From: Asaia bogorensis
GTDB lineage: Bacteria > Pseudomonadota > Alphaproteobacteria > Reyranellales > Reyranellaceae
Assembly: GCA_945889625.1 (NCBI GenBank)
Contig: CAMDCE010000010.1
Coordinates: 10,637-74,636, forward strand
DNA: 64,000 nt
Direction: 5' to 3'
The position numbers and the translations under genes are program-made. How positions within the stretch are numbered: the stretch's first letter is position 1; each line of letters opens with the position of its first letter. This document shows positions 59,608 through 64,000 of this stretch, piece by piece. A model generated the notes under the pieces. That model saw nothing but the letters and a program-made list of their open reading frames with translations, searched no databases and was not told the DNA's origin.

Positions 59608-61238
59608 TTAAGCTTGGCCCAGCCGGGGCTGATGGAACCCGTACGGCGGATAATCCTTGGCGATGTCCGACACGACTTCGATCAGCGCCGGCGCGTCGCT
59701 GGCCAGCGCCTCGCGGAGCGCGCCGCGCAGGCCGTCCGCGGTCTCGACCCGCCAGGCGCCGACGCCGAAGGAACGGGCGTAGGCCTGGAAGTCCGGGTTG
59801 GTCAGGACCGCGCCGGAATGGCGGCCCTCGTAGAGCCGCTGCTGGTCGCGCAGCACGTTGCCGTAAGAGGCGTTGTTCACCACCACCGTCACCAGGTTGA
59901 TGCCGAACTGCTTGGCGGTGGCGAGATCAGAGCCGCCGAACAGGAAGCCGCCGTCGCCGGCGACCGACACCACCGGCCGGTCGGGATTGGCGACCTTGAC
60001 GCCCAGCGCCGTCGGAAAGCCGTAGCCCAGCGTGCCGGAGAAGCCCGACGAGACCAGGCGGCGCGGCTGGTGAACGGGATAGCCGTACCAGATCATGTAG
60101 CCGAGCTGCGTCACCTCATCGACCACGATGCCATCGTCGGGCAGCACCTCGCGCAGCACCTTCATGAAGGAGTATTGCGGGTCGGCCTTCTCGACCGCCG
60201 CCTGCGCCGCCGCCCGGGCCGCGGTCACTGCGCCGCGCCACGCCGGATCGTCCTTGCGCTTGACCAGGGCGGCGAGCGCGCGCGTGCCGTCAGCGGCATC
60301 GGCCACGATCGCCACATCGACGGAAAGCCTGCGATGCTCGATCGGGTCGATGTCGATGCGCGCCGTCTTCAGCCCCGCCGGCGCCGGCGCCGGCGCCCAG
60401 CGCGCGAGCGGCACGTCGAGCCGCGTGCCGATGCCGATCAGCAGGTCGGTCCTGTCCCACAGCTCGAAGCCGCCCACCGTGTTCAGCGACAGCGGGTGGC
60501 GCGAATCGACCACGCCCTTGCCCATGCGGAACGACACGACGGGTGCTCCGATCTTCTCGGCCAGCGCCAGGATCTCGGGTCCGGCATCGACCGCGCCGCC
60601 GCCGATCCAGATCATCGGCGCCTTCGCACCGTCGACCAGCTTGGCGAGTGCGGCGACCTTGTCGGGATCGGGCACGGGATTGCCGTGCTTGCCCAGCGGG
60701 TCGATCGGCGTGACATCGGCGGCCGCGGAAAACATGTCCCACGGCATCTCGACCGCGACCGGACCGGGACGGCCCGAGGTCATCGCCTGGAATGCGCGCG
60801 CCATGACCTGGGCGCCTCGGTCGGATGCTCGATGCGCTCGGCGAACTTCAGCAGCGTCTTCAGGGTGGCGAGCTGGTCGGGCATCTCATGGAGCTGGCCG
60901 CGCCCGCGGCCGATCATGGCGCTCGGCACCTGGCCGGTGATGCACATGATGGGGGCGTTGACGCCCCATGCCGTGGTGAGCGCGCCCATGGTGTTCATCA
61001 CCCCGGGGCCGGGCACCACCGTGAAGGCCGACGGCTTGCCCGACGACTGGGCATAGCCCAAGGCCATGTAGGCGGTGGTCTGCTCGTGCCGCGCGTTGAT
61101 CACCTTCAGCCGGTTGGCGTTGCGGGCGAAGGCATCGAACAGGCCGTACATCTGCACGCCCGGCAGGCCGAAGATCGTGTCGACGCCGTGGCGCAGCAGG
61201 GAATCGACGATGGCGTCGCCACCGGTCATGCGAGGCAT
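59608..61238 (-). pseudogene. thiamine-pyrophosphate-dependent enzyme (acetolactate synthase-like), split by a 1-bp frameshift
   Basis: N part 60780-61238 (FGLPG, ARHEQ, VPGPG) and C part 59608-60804 (RPGPV, GTLGYG, GDGGF...NN); adding one base in the G run at 60810-60812 joins them. Confidence 0.85.
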
Positions 61239-62815: not shown

Positions 62816-63250
62816 ATGATATCGCCTCGCGAGCGTCACTTCGTTGATACGCGACGGATCGGTCATCTGGCGACCGCCGACCGAAACGCGGCGCCGCATG
62901 TCGTTCCGGTCTGCTTCGGCCTGCTGGACGACAAGGTCTACATCACCATCGACGGGAAGCCGAAGCAGGATCGCGGCCGGCCGCTGAAGCGGCTGCGCAA
63001 CATCGCCGACAATCGCCAAGTGGCCATCGTGTTCGACCGCTATGACGAAGACTGGCAGCGCCTCGCCTGGGTCATGCTGCACGGACGGGCGGAGATCCTC
63101 GCCGCCGGCAGCGAGCACGACCGGGCACAGGCGCTGCTGCGATCGCGTTACCGACAGCTCGACGCCATGCAGATCGGCGAGCTTCCCGTCATCGCCATCC
63201 ATATCGAGCGCGTCGCAAGCTGGGGCGCTCTCGGCGCCAAGGAAGCTTGA
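62816..63250 (+). CDS. PPOX-class (split-barrel) probable F420-dependent enzyme, Rv0121-like
   Basis: HLATAD...PHVVPVCF, IDGKPK..RPLKRLRNI, DRYDEDWQRLAWV, LRSRYRQ. Confidence 0.85.
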   Translation: MISPRERHFVDTRRIGHLATADRNAAPHVVPVCFGLLDDKVYITIDGKPKQDRGRPLKRLRNIADNRQVAIVFDRYDEDWQRLAWVMLHGRAEILAAGSEHDRAQALLRSRYRQLDAMQIGELPVIAIHIERVASWGALGAKEA

Positions 63251-63294
63251 CCCCCTCCGTCGCCTAAGAGTCATCACCTTCCCCCGTCTGCGGG
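63249..63294. repeat. partial copy of the gltX-cysS REP element
   Basis: GACCCCCTCCGTCGCC is the exact reverse complement of 35991-36006. Confidence 0.65.
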
Positions 63295-63644
63295 CTAGCG
63301 TTTGGCGCTCTTGCGCCAAATCGCGCGGGTGTCGGCGTCTGACGCCGACCTTGCGCCTTCACAGGCGCCGGGGGGTCATGGTTCCCATCGCTTCCCACGC
63401 CCGCGGGAAGCATCCGACGCCGACCGCGCCGCGTTTTCCCGCACTCCTTCCCATAATTCGCGCCACACCCCCTGCCCTGCGCAAAAAAAAGCGCCTCGCG
63501 AGGAATCGCAGATGGACCAGCAGCGGCGGGCACGAACGGCAATCCTCATGAATCTCATGAATCTCATGAGGCTCCCGAGACGGCGTCGGTGTCACCAGAC
63601 CTCGCAGGGCGCGATCGCCGGGCATTGCGGTTCGAGCTTTCTCT

Positions 63645-63689
63645 GTTCGCATTATGTTCTTGCCTATATCGCAATCTCGCATTATGGTC
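63645..63689 (+). promoter_or_regulatory. alphaproteobacterial LexA (SOS) box plus sigma70 promoter
   Basis: GTTC-GCATTAT-GTTC (63645-63659); TTGCCT (63660-63665)-N17-TATGGT (63683-63688); degenerate second box 63675-63689. Confidence 0.7.
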
Positions 63690-63695
63690 AACCGC

Positions 63696-64000
63696 ATGTC
63701 CACCGAGACCCAAGACCCGCCGCCGATGCCGCGTTCCCTCTCCGCCCCGGAGCTGCTCGCGGCCGACTCCCTGCCGCCGCGCGCGGCGATCCTCGATCCG
63801 ATCCTGTCGCGCAAGAGCCTGGCACTGCTCTACGGTCCGCGCGGCCTGGGCAAGACCTTCGCCGCACTCGGCATCGCCTGGGCCGCCGCCTCGGGCGGCA
63901 GCTTCCTCGGCTGGCGCGCGTCGCGGCCGCACCGCGTCTGCTACATCGACGGCGAGATGGCCGCGGCCGACATCCGCCAGCGGCTTGGCCTGTTCGGCGC
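63696..64000 (+). CDS. RecA-superfamily AAA ATPase (AAA_25/RepA-helicase-like), runs off window
   Basis: Manual translation MSTETQDPPP...LALLYGPRGLGKTF (Walker A)...RVCYIDGEM; missed by ORF track. Confidence 0.85.
   Translation, partial: MSTETQDPPPMPRSLSAPELLAADSLPPRAAILDPILSRKSLALLYGPRGLGKTFAALGIAWAAASGGSFLGWRASRPHRVCYIDGEMAAADIRQRLGLFG

What the first reader, a model, noticed from the sequence alone, without database searches (positions are those of the whole stretch)
63645..64000. SOS-boxed, probably leaderless RepA/AAA_25-like ATPase gene missed by the ORF track
Seen: a perfect GTTC-N7-GTTC abuts a TTGCCT-N17-TATGGT promoter. A duplicated spacer (TCGCATTATG twice) forms a second degenerate box over the -10. 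The ATG is 7 nt after the -10 with no RBS. The protein has Walker A GPRGLGKT and YIDGEM. Known: GTTC-N7-GTTC is the alphaproteobacterial LexA site, and this ATPase family includes plasmid and phage RepA-type helicases, not RecA or ImuA. Inference: either a DNA-damage-inducible integrated element or a domesticated helicase that is an undescribed SOS regulon member.
Basis: partly seen in the sequence, partly recalled or inferred. Interest (0 to 1): 0.7.

Follow-up and report, generated by a model that had tools for sequence, protein, structure and literature searches.

The report
SOS-boxed phage-type helicase gene cassette
The window ends in the first gene of an uncharacterised, probably phage-derived three-gene cassette of Alphaproteobacteria, a RepA/RadA-like ATPase fused to a DNA-binding domain; about a quarter of its relatives (10 of 36 promoters) also carry the LexA DNA-damage operator, so damage-induced expression is likely but untested.

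Summary
It is a perfect GTTC-N7-GTTC abutting TTGCCT-N17-TATGGT, an ATG 7 nt after the -10 with no SD, a 13-nt duplicated unit, and an AAA_25 N-terminus with Walker A.

In this window alone the box is no better than chance (2 hits, 1.57 expected). Across 36 unique promoters of homologues at 55% identity or more, 10 carry a perfect box. Dinucleotide shuffles give a mean of 0.18 and a maximum of 3 in 3000. It is also the top dyad in an unbiased enumeration. The boxes sit at three repression-competent positions. None of 80 more distant phage relatives has one.

The nearest relatives (71-84% identity) mostly lack the box and carry other paired palindromic operators. LexA control is therefore recurrent, not universal.

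Full-length homologues are about 300 aa (AAA_25 plus a C-terminal HTH). They fold like RSF1010 RepA and RadA. Two small unknown ORFs usually follow. A five-copy iteron array that co-varies with the HTH helix lies upstream.

No integrase was found. Flanking genes vary. Phage relatives at about 40% identity sit next to integrases.

Best reading: a LexA-repressed, leaderless replication-initiator/helicase module of a cryptic mobile element. It is an uncharacterised variant of a known theme, and no expression or binding data exist.

The parts
63381..63455 (.). Iteron and hairpin array. TTCCCA at 63382, TTCCCAC at 63392 paired with an inverted GGGAA at 63405 (hairpin 63390-63411), a conserved core GCATCCGACGCCGACC, then TTCCC at 63436 and TTCCCA at 63448.
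   Evidence: The same layout ([+ + -], about 45 nt, [+ +]) is seen upstream of homologues at -250 to -70. The 7-mer differs between loci (TTCCCAC or GTCTCAC) in step with the HTH recognition helix. The hairpin is repeat I9.
63474..63620 (.). Lineage-specific insert between the iterons and the promoter. It is flanked by inverted repeats (63474-63503 and 63600-63620) and holds three 9-nt tandem units, CTCATGAAT, at 63545-63574.
   Evidence: In relatives the iterons run directly into the promoter, so this segment is extra here.
63645..63659 (+). Perfect alphaproteobacterial-type LexA box, GTTC-GCATTAT-GTTC. Its 3' end abuts the -35 hexamer.
   Evidence: The same placement occurs in L027 (GTTCactgattGTTC|TTGACG). 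Family-level enrichment is shown. The motif identity is taken from PMC9578287 and PMC3323433.
63647..63659 (+). First copy of the 13-nt direct repeat TCGCATTATGTTC. It overlaps the LexA box.
   Evidence: family D4.
63677..63689 (+). Second copy, TCGCATTATGGTC, overlapping the -10. As a LexA box it matches only 5 of 8 core positions. It may be an operator for another regulator.
   Evidence: family D4. Relatives have paired non-LexA operators (TGCG-N5-7-CGCA) at the equivalent two positions.
63660..63665 (+). -35 hexamer TTGCCT.
   Evidence: It is positionally homologous to TTGACA, TTGCAT, TTGAAT and TTGACG of relatives when these are aligned on the ATG. The consensus scan does not call it.
63660..63674 (.). 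Palindrome TTGC-CTATATC-GCAA, spanning the -35 and part of the spacer.
   Evidence: L001 has ATTGC-ATATATA-GCAAT at the same position.
63683..63688 (+). -10 hexamer TATGGT.
63696..64000 (+). 5' part (101 codons) of the AAA_25-HTH gene, cut by the window end. The ATG lies at the predicted transcription start, giving a leaderless layout.
   Evidence: The distance from the -10 to the ATG is 5-7 nt, without an SD, in at least 12 relatives.
63834..63857 (+). Walker A / P-loop, GPRGLGKT.
   Evidence: It is invariant in 52 full-length homologues.
63942..63959 (+). YIDGEM strand with the conserved Asp-Gly-Glu. The Glu is the presumed catalytic glutamate of RepA/DnaB-type ATPases; this is an inference.
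   Evidence: D79 and G80 are invariant and E81 nearly invariant in alignment A2.

Best explanation
The window ends in the first gene of a compact cassette found in many Alphaproteobacteria.

The cassette has four elements, in order:
- An upstream array of five short iterons.
- An AT-rich sigma-70-type promoter whose -10 lies 5-7 nt before the ATG, which would make the mRNA leaderless.
- A gene of about 300 aa for a RecA-fold, RepA/RadA-like P-loop ATPase fused to a C-terminal helix-turn-helix.
- Usually two small translationally coupled ORFs of unknown fold.

In this window a perfect LexA operator (GTTC-N7-GTTC) sits flush against the -35. Proposed mechanism: LexA bound there blocks RNA polymerase from the -35 and upstream region. 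DNA damage leads to RecA-stimulated LexA self-cleavage. The ATPase is then made, binds the iterons through its HTH, and acts there as an initiator and helicase.

The module most likely descends from a temperate-phage or satellite replication module. It now persists without an integrase, as a cryptic or defective mobile element.

Shown here: the sequence features, the family and fold, family-wide enrichment of the box, recurrence of the leaderless layout, and iteron/HTH co-variation.

Inferred: LexA binding, damage induction, the true start codon, iteron binding by the HTH, and helicase or replication activity.
For: Box:
- It is the top-ranked dyad of all 4-N(4-10)-4 dyads in homologue promoters, present in 10 of 31 loci against 1 background hit in 150 kb.
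- Ten of 36 unique promoters carry it. Dinucleotide shuffles give a mean of 0.18 and a maximum of 3 in 3000.
- It occurs at three positions, each able to repress. It abuts the -35 in the window and L027. It starts right after the -10 with the ATG inside the spacer in L005, L049 and L029. It lies over the SD and the +1 region in L002, L006, L012 and L020.
- The spacers vary while the GAAC/GTTC tetramers are kept.
- Box carriers are scattered in the tree.
- None of 80 IMG/VR relatives has an alpha-, gamma- or Gram-positive-type box.

Hosts:
- Named genome hits are Alphaproteobacteria: Enhydrobacter, Rhodospirillales and Caulobacteraceae.
- The one Acidobacteria bin fits. PMC3323433 cites Mazon 2006, whose title reports lateral acquisition of the alphaproteobacterial lexA by Acidobacterium.

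Protein:
- AAA_25 in the window fragment.
- Full-length homologues carry AAA_25 plus HTH_23/HTH_29.
- Walker A, Walker B (DN), HHANK and RG motifs are invariant.
- The AlphaFold model has pLDDT 80. Best PDB matches are RadA 8rxc and RSF1010 RepA 1nlf/1g8y (TM 0.58 on the query, 0.66-0.69 on the target). Viral matches are primase-helicases.

Iterons:
- They occur only upstream of the gene, in a fixed layout.
- The TTCCCAC type goes with HTH helix S-K-[ST]-K-[AS]-Y-R-L. The GTCTCAC type goes with S-R-A-[ST]-[AG]-Y-R-L. L013 and L017/L018 have related N-terminal regions but differ in both iteron and helix.

Mobile origin:
- The same AAA_25+HTH architecture, at about 40% identity, lies next to P4-type integrases and phage morphogenesis genes in IMG/VR (L103, L109).
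- Chromosomal flanks differ between loci.
- In run X3 of the source study, one contig keeps the left flank up to 63337. It then carries a different 291-nt intergenic stretch and an allele with 33 differences in 195 nt.
Against: - Most of the closest relatives (71-84% identity) have no LexA box.
- The box alone is not significant in the window.
- The promoter is a weak consensus match and the scan does not call it.
- No integrase, att-like flanking repeat or second iteron cluster was found around any alphaproteobacterial locus.
- No primase or other replication partner was found. ORF2 and ORF3 have no Pfam, PHROG or PADLOC hit, and the ORF2 model has no structural match.
- DnaA-box-like sites occur in only 4 loci.
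- There is only one partial hit in 72,556 plasmids.
- The host's LexA type and the downstream genes of this window could not be checked.
- No transcript or binding data exist.
Confidence: 0.55

Rival explanations
1. The cassette is a domesticated chromosomal SOS-regulon member. The RecA-fold ATPase-HTH protein would act in damage tolerance or repair, or as a damage-responsive transcription factor. It would bind the iterons only for autoregulation, and the cassette would no longer be part of any mobile element.
For: - No integrase or att repeats were found, and housekeeping genes lie within about 1 kb on both sides.
- Proteins are 60-90% identical across hosts from different orders, and the catalytic motifs are intact.
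- There is partial synteny. A hisS-like gene lies nearby in both L092 and L101, and an ABC transporter with a lipoprotein lies upstream in L003, L014 and L024.
- The top structural hit is the repair helicase RadA.
Against: - Only 10 of 36 promoters keep the box. The rest use at least two other operator types, a pattern typical of phage immunity-region diversity.
- Flanks differ widely between loci.
- A co-occurring strain has the same left flank but a swapped promoter and a divergent allele (33 differences in 195 nt).
- Frameshifted copies exist on long contigs (P0013, P0018).
- Phage homologues share the same architecture.
Confidence: 0.25
2. In this window the GTTC-N7-GTTC is fortuitous. It would be one copy of a duplicated 13-nt operator (TCGCATTATGKTC, twice, 30 nt apart) bound by a cassette-specific or other repressor. 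LexA would play no role here.
For: - The bare motif is at chance level in the window.
- The two 13-nt copies occupy the same two positions (just upstream of the -35, and in the spacer/-10) as the paired TGCG-N5-7-CGCA operators of the nearest relatives.
- An inverted near-copy lies at 63451-63460 (repeats I13 and I19).
- The nearest relatives lack LexA boxes.
Against: - Given a 10-of-36 family frequency against 0.18 expected, a perfect box at a promoter of this family is unlikely to be chance.
- L027 has a box at exactly the same position without any duplication.
- The second copy has lost three of the eight core bases. That fits one true LexA box plus a diverged duplicate.
Confidence: 0.15
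3. The three-gene cassette is an anti-phage or abortive-infection module, or the anchor of a defence island. It would be switched on by DNA damage or infection rather than serving as a replication module.
For: - A type II CBASS operon (CD-NTase, Cap15, E1/E2, JAB) lies directly downstream in L093.
- A Cas9 gene lies directly downstream in L024.
- There is a weak PADLOC hit to mad8, E 4.4e-6, limited to the P-loop region.
- The two partner proteins are unknown.
Against: - Only 2 of about 20 long loci show defence neighbours.
- There is no significant PADLOC family hit for any of the three proteins beyond the P-loop.
- No nuclease or other effector domain was found.
- Iterons plus a helicase-like ATPase fit replication better.
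Confidence: 0.08

Closest known systems
RSF1010 (IncQ) RepA hexameric replicative helicase (Pfam AAA_25; PDB 1g8y, 1nlf, 1olo)
   Same: Same Pfam family. It has a RecA-fold core of similar size. Walker A, Walker B, the histidine motif and the arginine motif are conserved in homologues. It is among the best structural matches, with TM 0.66-0.69 on the RepA chain.
   Different: The protein here has a C-terminal HTH that RepA lacks. It is chromosomal and integrase-less, not plasmid-borne (one partial hit in PLSDB). No RepB primase or RepC iteron-binding partner was found. Sequence identity is only 16-19%.
CTX-phi PrstA control by LexA plus the phage repressor RstR in Vibrio cholerae (Quinones, Kimsey, Waldor and colleagues; recalled from memory, not checked here)
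   Same: In both, an integrated element has the promoter of its replication-initiator gene carrying a host LexA site just upstream of the -35, together with element-specific operators. DNA damage would then derepress replication functions.
   Different: The LexA motif is different (a gamma-type palindrome there, an alpha-type direct repeat here). RstA is a rolling-circle initiator, not a RecA-fold ATPase. LexA binding is demonstrated for CTX-phi and only inferred here.
Satellite and phage initiator-helicases with a C-terminal origin-specificity domain (SaPI Rep, P4 alpha protein; recalled from memory, not checked here)
   Same: In both, one polypeptide combines a hexameric helicase-type ATPase with a C-terminal DNA-binding domain. 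Its specificity matches iterons next to the gene. The iterons and the DNA-binding helix co-vary between loci.
   Different: Those proteins are SF3 or primase-helicase fusions. This one is a stand-alone AAA_25 ATPase. No primase domain, integrase or packaging genes were found. The iterons lie upstream of the gene.
imuA-imuB-dnaE2 LexA-regulated cassette of Proteobacteria (Abella et al. 2004, listed in the references of PMC3323433)
   Same: Both are LexA-boxed multi-gene cassettes, patchily distributed in Proteobacteria, whose first gene encodes a RecA-fold protein.
   Different: No imuB or dnaE2 follows the gene in any homologue locus. The protein has a canonical Walker A and hits AAA_25, so it is not ImuA.
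RadA/Sms repair helicase (PDB 8rxc, 5lkm)
   Same: It is the top Foldseek hit for the ATPase core (E 3.4e-11) and has a role in the response to DNA damage.
   Different: The protein here has no N-terminal zinc finger and no C-terminal Lon-like domain. It has an HTH instead. Sequence identity is 13-19%.

Membership tests
Alphaproteobacterial LexA (SOS) regulon | [quoted passage not shown] | tested here: met
   The box at 63645-63659 abuts the -35 at 63660. The motif definition is taken from PMC9578287 and PMC3323433.
Alphaproteobacterial LexA (SOS) regulon | The box is conserved in promoters of orthologues beyond chance. | tested here: inconclusive
   Ten of 36 unique promoters carry it, against a shuffle mean of 0.18, and it is the top dyad. 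It is absent from most of the closest relatives, and its position differs between clades. The feature is recurrent, not universal.
Alphaproteobacterial LexA (SOS) regulon | The host encodes a LexA that recognises this motif. | not tested
   No lexA or recA gene was looked for in the window, and the source contig beyond it was not available. The host class is inferred from named homologue hosts.
Alphaproteobacterial LexA (SOS) regulon | LexA binding and RecA-dependent induction by DNA damage. | not testable with these tools
   The source is a lake-water metagenome. Only DNA runs hold the sequence.
Pfam AAA_25 (PF13481) | HMM score above the gathering threshold. | tested here: met
   The window fragment scores 59.7 bits against 27. 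Full-length homologues score 82-91 bits.
RepA-type hexameric replicative helicase | Walker A, Walker B, catalytic Glu, His sensor and Arg finger are all intact. | tested here: met
   Walker A and DGE are visible in the window. The other motifs are invariant in 52 full-length homologues but lie beyond the window end for this copy.
RepA-type hexameric replicative helicase | Structural similarity to RSF1010 RepA. | tested here: met
   The homologue model (pLDDT 80) matches 1nlf, 1g8y and 1olo at E about 1e-10, with TM 0.58 on the query and 0.66-0.69 on the target. RadA and KaiC score equally well, so the fold does not single out RepA.
RepA-type hexameric replicative helicase | Hexamer formation, DNA-dependent ATPase activity and unwinding. 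| not testable with these tools
   This needs biochemistry.
ImuA (imuA-imuB-dnaE2 cassette) | imuB and dnaE2 follow the gene, and the RecA-like protein lacks a canonical P-loop. | tested here: not met
   The downstream genes in homologue loci are two small unknown ORFs. A canonical GPRGLGKT is present.
Leaderless mRNA | The transcription start is at or within a few nt of the start codon, and there is no SD. | tested here: inconclusive
   The -10 ends 7 nt before the ATG and there is no SD. The same 5-7 nt layout occurs in at least 12 relatives. No TSS data exist, and alternative in-frame ATGs are present.
Integrated mobile element (prophage, satellite, ICE or IME) | A recombinase gene and flanking att repeats. 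| tested here: not met
   No integrase lies within 5-8 kb in any alphaproteobacterial locus. No flanking direct repeats bracket the cassette. Integrases occur only next to the 40%-identity IMG/VR relatives.
Integrated mobile element (prophage, satellite, ICE or IME) | Variable insertion context and replacement independent of the flanks. | tested here: met
   Neighbours differ between loci. An X3 contig has the same left flank up to 63337, then a different 291-nt intergenic stretch and an allele with 33 differences in 195 nt.

The most novel reading that the evidence does not exclude
The cassette would be a self-contained, integrase-less 'in situ replicon'. After DNA damage, or phage-induced SOS, LexA cleavage would release the leaderless initiator-helicase. 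This would fire the adjacent iteron origin while still in the chromosome. The flanking region would be locally over-replicated, including defence cargo such as the CBASS and Cas9 loci seen next to it. That could boost gene dosage or feed the region into transducing or gene-transfer particles.
Probability: 0.06. Interest if true: 0.8.

Novelty: new variant of a known kind. Interest (0 to 1): 0.5.

Why it matters
Host LexA control of mobile-element replication or induction genes is a known theme, for example in CTX-phi, coliphage 186 and integron integrases. In Alphaproteobacteria, where LexA binds a direct repeat, described SOS regulons are mostly repair, mutagenesis and cell-division genes.

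Here a large uncharacterised family shows recurrent, positionally diverse LexA boxes. The family search returned 828 clusters at E<=1e-20. No matching description was found in the literature searches.

The cassette has an unusual make-up:
- a stand-alone AAA_25 ATPase fused to an HTH
- co-varying iterons
- a leaderless promoter
- two orphan partner proteins
- no recombinase

If the mechanism holds, it would add a damage-inducible replication module to the alphaproteobacterial SOS network. It would also be a compact system for studying operator turnover, that is LexA against element-specific repressors on homologous promoters. If it does not hold, the locus is simply one more cryptic phage remnant.

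Tried and rejected
- tRNA and Rfam scans of the whole window found nothing, so no tRNA-linked island and no known RNA explains the conserved upstream region.
- The consensus promoter/terminator scan called no promoter in 63200-64000. The two terminator-like hits just upstream are weak 5-bp stems, and I did not use them.
- NCBIfam gave only sub-threshold IstB/RFC P-loop hits. A PDB sequence search gave only P-loop-level VCP hits.
- PHROG, PADLOC and Pfam gave nothing for ORF2 or ORF3. The ORF2 AlphaFold model (helical, pLDDT 79) had no PDB match better than E = 1.
- The PLSDB protein search gave one partial hit, on a Nitrobacter plasmid. A plasmid-borne family is therefore rejected.
- I tried to read past the window end through neighbouring window proteins. 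The enoyl-CoA hydratase returned only 2-kb Logan contigs. Three start-codon guesses for the PNPOx-like and GST genes were not on record.
- A search for a second iteron cluster, terminal inverted repeats or target-site duplications around the cassette found none. A transposon-like element is rejected.
- DnaA-box scan: 4 hits in 11.8 kb of upstream sequence against 5 in 219 kb of background. They lie in only 4 loci, two of them sister loci, which is too sparse to call an origin feature.
- CtrA-type TTAA-N7-TTAAC was considered for the GTTAA..TTAAC palindromes. The spacing seen by eye is 9-10 nt, not 7, and I did not pursue it.
- ImuA and RecA identities were rejected (see the membership tests).
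- One literature search failed on phrase length. The others found the motif references but nothing on this family.
Full report
**1. Observation**

- GTTCGCATTATGTTC lies at 63645-63659.
- TTGCCT lies at 63660-63665, followed by a 17-nt spacer and TATGGT at 63683-63688.
- The ATG is at 63696, 7 nt after the -10, with no Shine-Dalgarno sequence.
- The 13-nt unit TCGCATTATG(T/G)TC occurs at 63647-63659 and 63677-63689.
- Translation gives 101 codons with GPRGLGKT and YIDGEM.
- Pfam AAA_25 scores 59.7 bits, E 3.8e-16.
- The ORF is absent from the ORF list only because it runs off the window end.

Four caveats apply.
- The bare motif occurs twice in the window against 1.57 expected. The second copy lies inside an amidohydrolase ORF.
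- The promoter matches 8 of 12 consensus positions, and the scan does not call it.
- The 'second box' is TCTC-N7-GGTC, 5 of 8 core positions.
- Other in-frame ATGs exist at 63654 and 63684, and a conserved Met-Pro-Arg lies at 63726.

**2. Is the box more than chance?**

I collected homologue loci from species-representative genomes, from metagenome contigs and by exact-protein look-ups.

Among loci whose product is at least 55% identical to the window fragment, perfect GTTC-N7-GTTC or GAAC-N7-GAAC boxes lie in the 170 nt before the conserved N-terminus in L002, L005, L006, L012, L020, L027, L029, L041 and L049, as well as in the window.

Three controls support this.
- An unbiased count of every 4-mer-N(4-10)-4-mer dyad ranks GAAC-N7-GAAC first. 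It occurs in 10 of 31 loci, with a single occurrence in 150 kb of background from the same loci.
- Over 36 unique promoter regions, 10 carry the box. In 3000 dinucleotide-preserving shuffles the mean is 0.18 and the maximum 3.
- None of 80 more distant relatives from IMG/VR (26-41% identity) has an alpha-, gamma- or Gram-positive-type LexA box upstream.

The motif is the published alphaproteobacterial LexA site (PMC9578287 and PMC3323433).

The boxes fall into position classes.
- Class A is flush against the -35: the window and L027 (GTTCactgattGTTC|TTGACG).
- Class B starts 0-5 nt after the -10, with the start codon inside the spacer (GAACggATGcaGAAC): L005, L049 and L029.
- Class C lies over the SD and the +1 region (GAACgaaAGGAGAAC): L002, L006, L012 and L020.
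- L041 has one box further upstream.

Spacers and flanks differ within classes while the tetramers are kept. Carriers are scattered in a neighbour-joining tree of the N-terminal region.

Most of the closest relatives have no box. These are L101/L102 at 84%, L099/L100 at 80%, and L022, L003, L092 and L001. They carry paired palindromic operators instead. The pairs are of the TGCG-N5-7-CGCA or GTTAA..TTAAC type. One copy sits just upstream of the -35 and the other in the spacer.

LexA control is therefore a recurrent, interchangeable option on homologous promoters. It is not a fixed family trait. In the window, the two 13-nt repeats occupy the same two positions as those operator pairs. The first copy is a perfect LexA box and the second is degenerate.

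**3. Leaderless layout**

When aligned on the ATG, the -35 and -10 hexamers of the window, L099, L101, L092, L027, L095, L017, L029, L005, L019, L090, L001 and others fall at the same distances. The -10 ends 5-7 nt before the ATG, and there is no SD. This supports a leaderless mRNA as an inference. Only class C promoters have a short leader with an SD. No TSS data exist.

**4. What the gene is**

Full-length homologues are 295-320 aa and carry AAA_25 plus a C-terminal HTH_23/HTH_29.

The family is large and unnamed. The search returned 828 clusters with E<=1e-20, annotated as 'AAA family ATPase', 'hypothetical' or 'RecA-family ATPase'.

In 52 members the Walker A, DGE, Walker B (DN), HHANK and RG motifs are invariant or nearly so.

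An AlphaFold model of P0124 (80% identical to the window fragment, mean pLDDT 80) best matches three structures:
- the RadA helicase
- the RSF1010 RepA hexameric helicase (TM 0.58 on the query, 0.66-0.69 on the target)
- KaiC

Among viral models it matches phage primase-helicases and replicative helicases. It is not ImuA and not RecA.

**5. The unit it belongs to**

In many loci two small genes follow the ATPase gene, with overlapping stop and start codons. ORF2 is about 110-150 aa and ORF3 about 114-160 aa. This includes the closest relatives and box class B. Neither ORF hits Pfam, PHROG or PADLOC. The ORF2 model is a helical hairpin with a long C-terminal helix and has no structural match. 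Some loci have the ATPase gene alone (L001, L002, L003, L024).

Upstream, at -250 to -70, every close relative has the same array. It consists of two direct 7-mers, an inverted copy forming a hairpin or palindrome, a conserved core of about 45 nt (..tccgatgccgatggcat..gattc), and two more direct copies. No second cluster lies elsewhere in the loci.

The 7-mer differs between loci, and the HTH recognition helix changes with it.
- TTCCCAC goes with S-K-[ST]-K-[AS]-Y-R-L.
- GTCTCAC goes with S-R-A-[ST]-[AG]-Y-R-L.
- L013 and L017/L018 have related N-terminal regions but differ in both iteron and helix.

This points to the HTH binding the iterons, as plasmid, satellite and phage initiators do. It is an inference, because the loci are related to one another.

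The window has the array at 63381-63455 (TTCCCAC type). It is separated from the promoter by an extra segment of about 150 nt (63474-63620) with inverted ends and three CTCATGAAT tandem units.

**6. Mobile or resident?**

For a mobile origin:
- Flanking genes differ widely between loci.
- Promoters are mosaic.
- Frameshifted copies exist (P0013 and P0018).
- IMG/VR holds proteins of the same architecture, at about 40% identity over the full length, next to P4-type integrases and phage morphogenesis genes (L103, L109).
- In run X3 of the source study, one contig matches the window up to 63337 with one difference. It then has 291 nt in place of 441. It resumes at 63779-63973 with 33 differences in 195 nt. 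The cassette, starting just before the iterons, has therefore been exchanged independently of its left flank.

Against:
- No integrase lies within 5-8 kb of any alphaproteobacterial locus.
- No flanking repeats were found.
- There is essentially no plasmid presence.
- Some synteny exists between related genomes.

I conclude that this is a phage- or satellite-derived replication-type module that now persists without its own recombinase. Whether it is still active or has been domesticated remains open.

**7. Mechanism proposed**

LexA bound at 63645-63659 would hinder RNA polymerase contacts at and upstream of the -35. CTX-phi PrstA works this way, a comparison recalled from memory. In classes B and C, LexA would sit on the start site. 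Damage-induced LexA cleavage would then allow transcription of a leaderless mRNA. The ATPase-HTH would bind the iterons and act as an initiator/helicase, or as an autoregulator. None of these steps is experimentally shown.

**8. Limits**

- The window stops at codon 101.
- The source contig beyond it could not be fetched.
- The host taxon and its LexA are inferred from named homologue hosts. These are Enhydrobacter, Rhodospirillales and Caulobacteraceae, all Alphaproteobacteria.
- The one Acidobacteria bin is compatible. PMC3323433 cites Mazon 2006, whose title reports lateral acquisition of the alphaproteobacterial lexA by Acidobacterium.
- No RNA runs contain the sequence.

**9. Verdict**

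The feature is real and, at family level, far beyond chance. It is a new variant of a known theme, host LexA gating a mobile-element replication-type gene, in an uncharacterised cassette. Interest is moderate.

Noticed in passing
window 63278-63350: This is a partial second copy of the hairpin and core part of the iteron region. CTTCCCCCGTCTGCGGG and GCGTCTGACGCCGACC here match 63391-63407 and 63410-63425. Strain variants in the source metagenome diverge from the window at 63328-63374, so this may mark the left edge of the exchangeable cassette.
   Followed up: partly
window 63474-63620: A segment of about 150 nt is absent from relatives. It is bounded by inverted repeats and holds three CTCATGAAT tandem units, each with a GANTC site. 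It could be a small inserted palindromic element. The 16-nt core is unique in the window.
   Followed up: partly
L024 6380-9862: A Cas9 gene of 1160 aa (HNH_4, RuvC_III and Cas9_a domains) lies directly downstream of the homologous ATPase gene.
   Followed up: partly
L093 8951-13217: A type II CBASS-like operon lies directly downstream of the homologous ATPase gene. It comprises Prok-JAB, a Cap15-like effector, a DncV-like CD-NTase and an E1/E2-like protein.
   Followed up: no
window 59608-61238 (- strand): A thiamine-pyrophosphate enzyme is split into two overlapping ORFs. The N domain is at 60780-61238 and the M and C domains at 59608-60804. This is a frameshift, a pseudogene or an assembly error.
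   Followed up: no
L004, L013, L014, L024, L092, L093, L099: just 5' of the downstream iteron pair: A GATTC (GANTC, the CcrM methylation motif) is conserved next to the iterons in many loci but not in the window. This was seen by eye.
   Followed up: no
L024 and L004, about 77 nt before the conserved N-terminus: A perfect DnaA-box-like site (TTATCCACA, on the minus strand) in L024 and a one-mismatch site in L004 lie between the iterons and the promoter. Only 4 loci have such a site overall.
   Followed up: partly
P0013 (126-kb contig), P0018 (19-kb contig): These are 146-149-aa versions of the protein that diverge from full-length relatives after about residue 105, which suggests frameshifted copies in some genomes.
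   Followed up: no
L095 9773-9840; L101 7816-7841 and 9752-9856: Long perfect-ish palindromes containing CGCGGTCCGGAA / TTCCGGACCGCG and TCATGA lie next to the cassette in two unrelated samples. They look like REP-type repeats.
   Followed up: no
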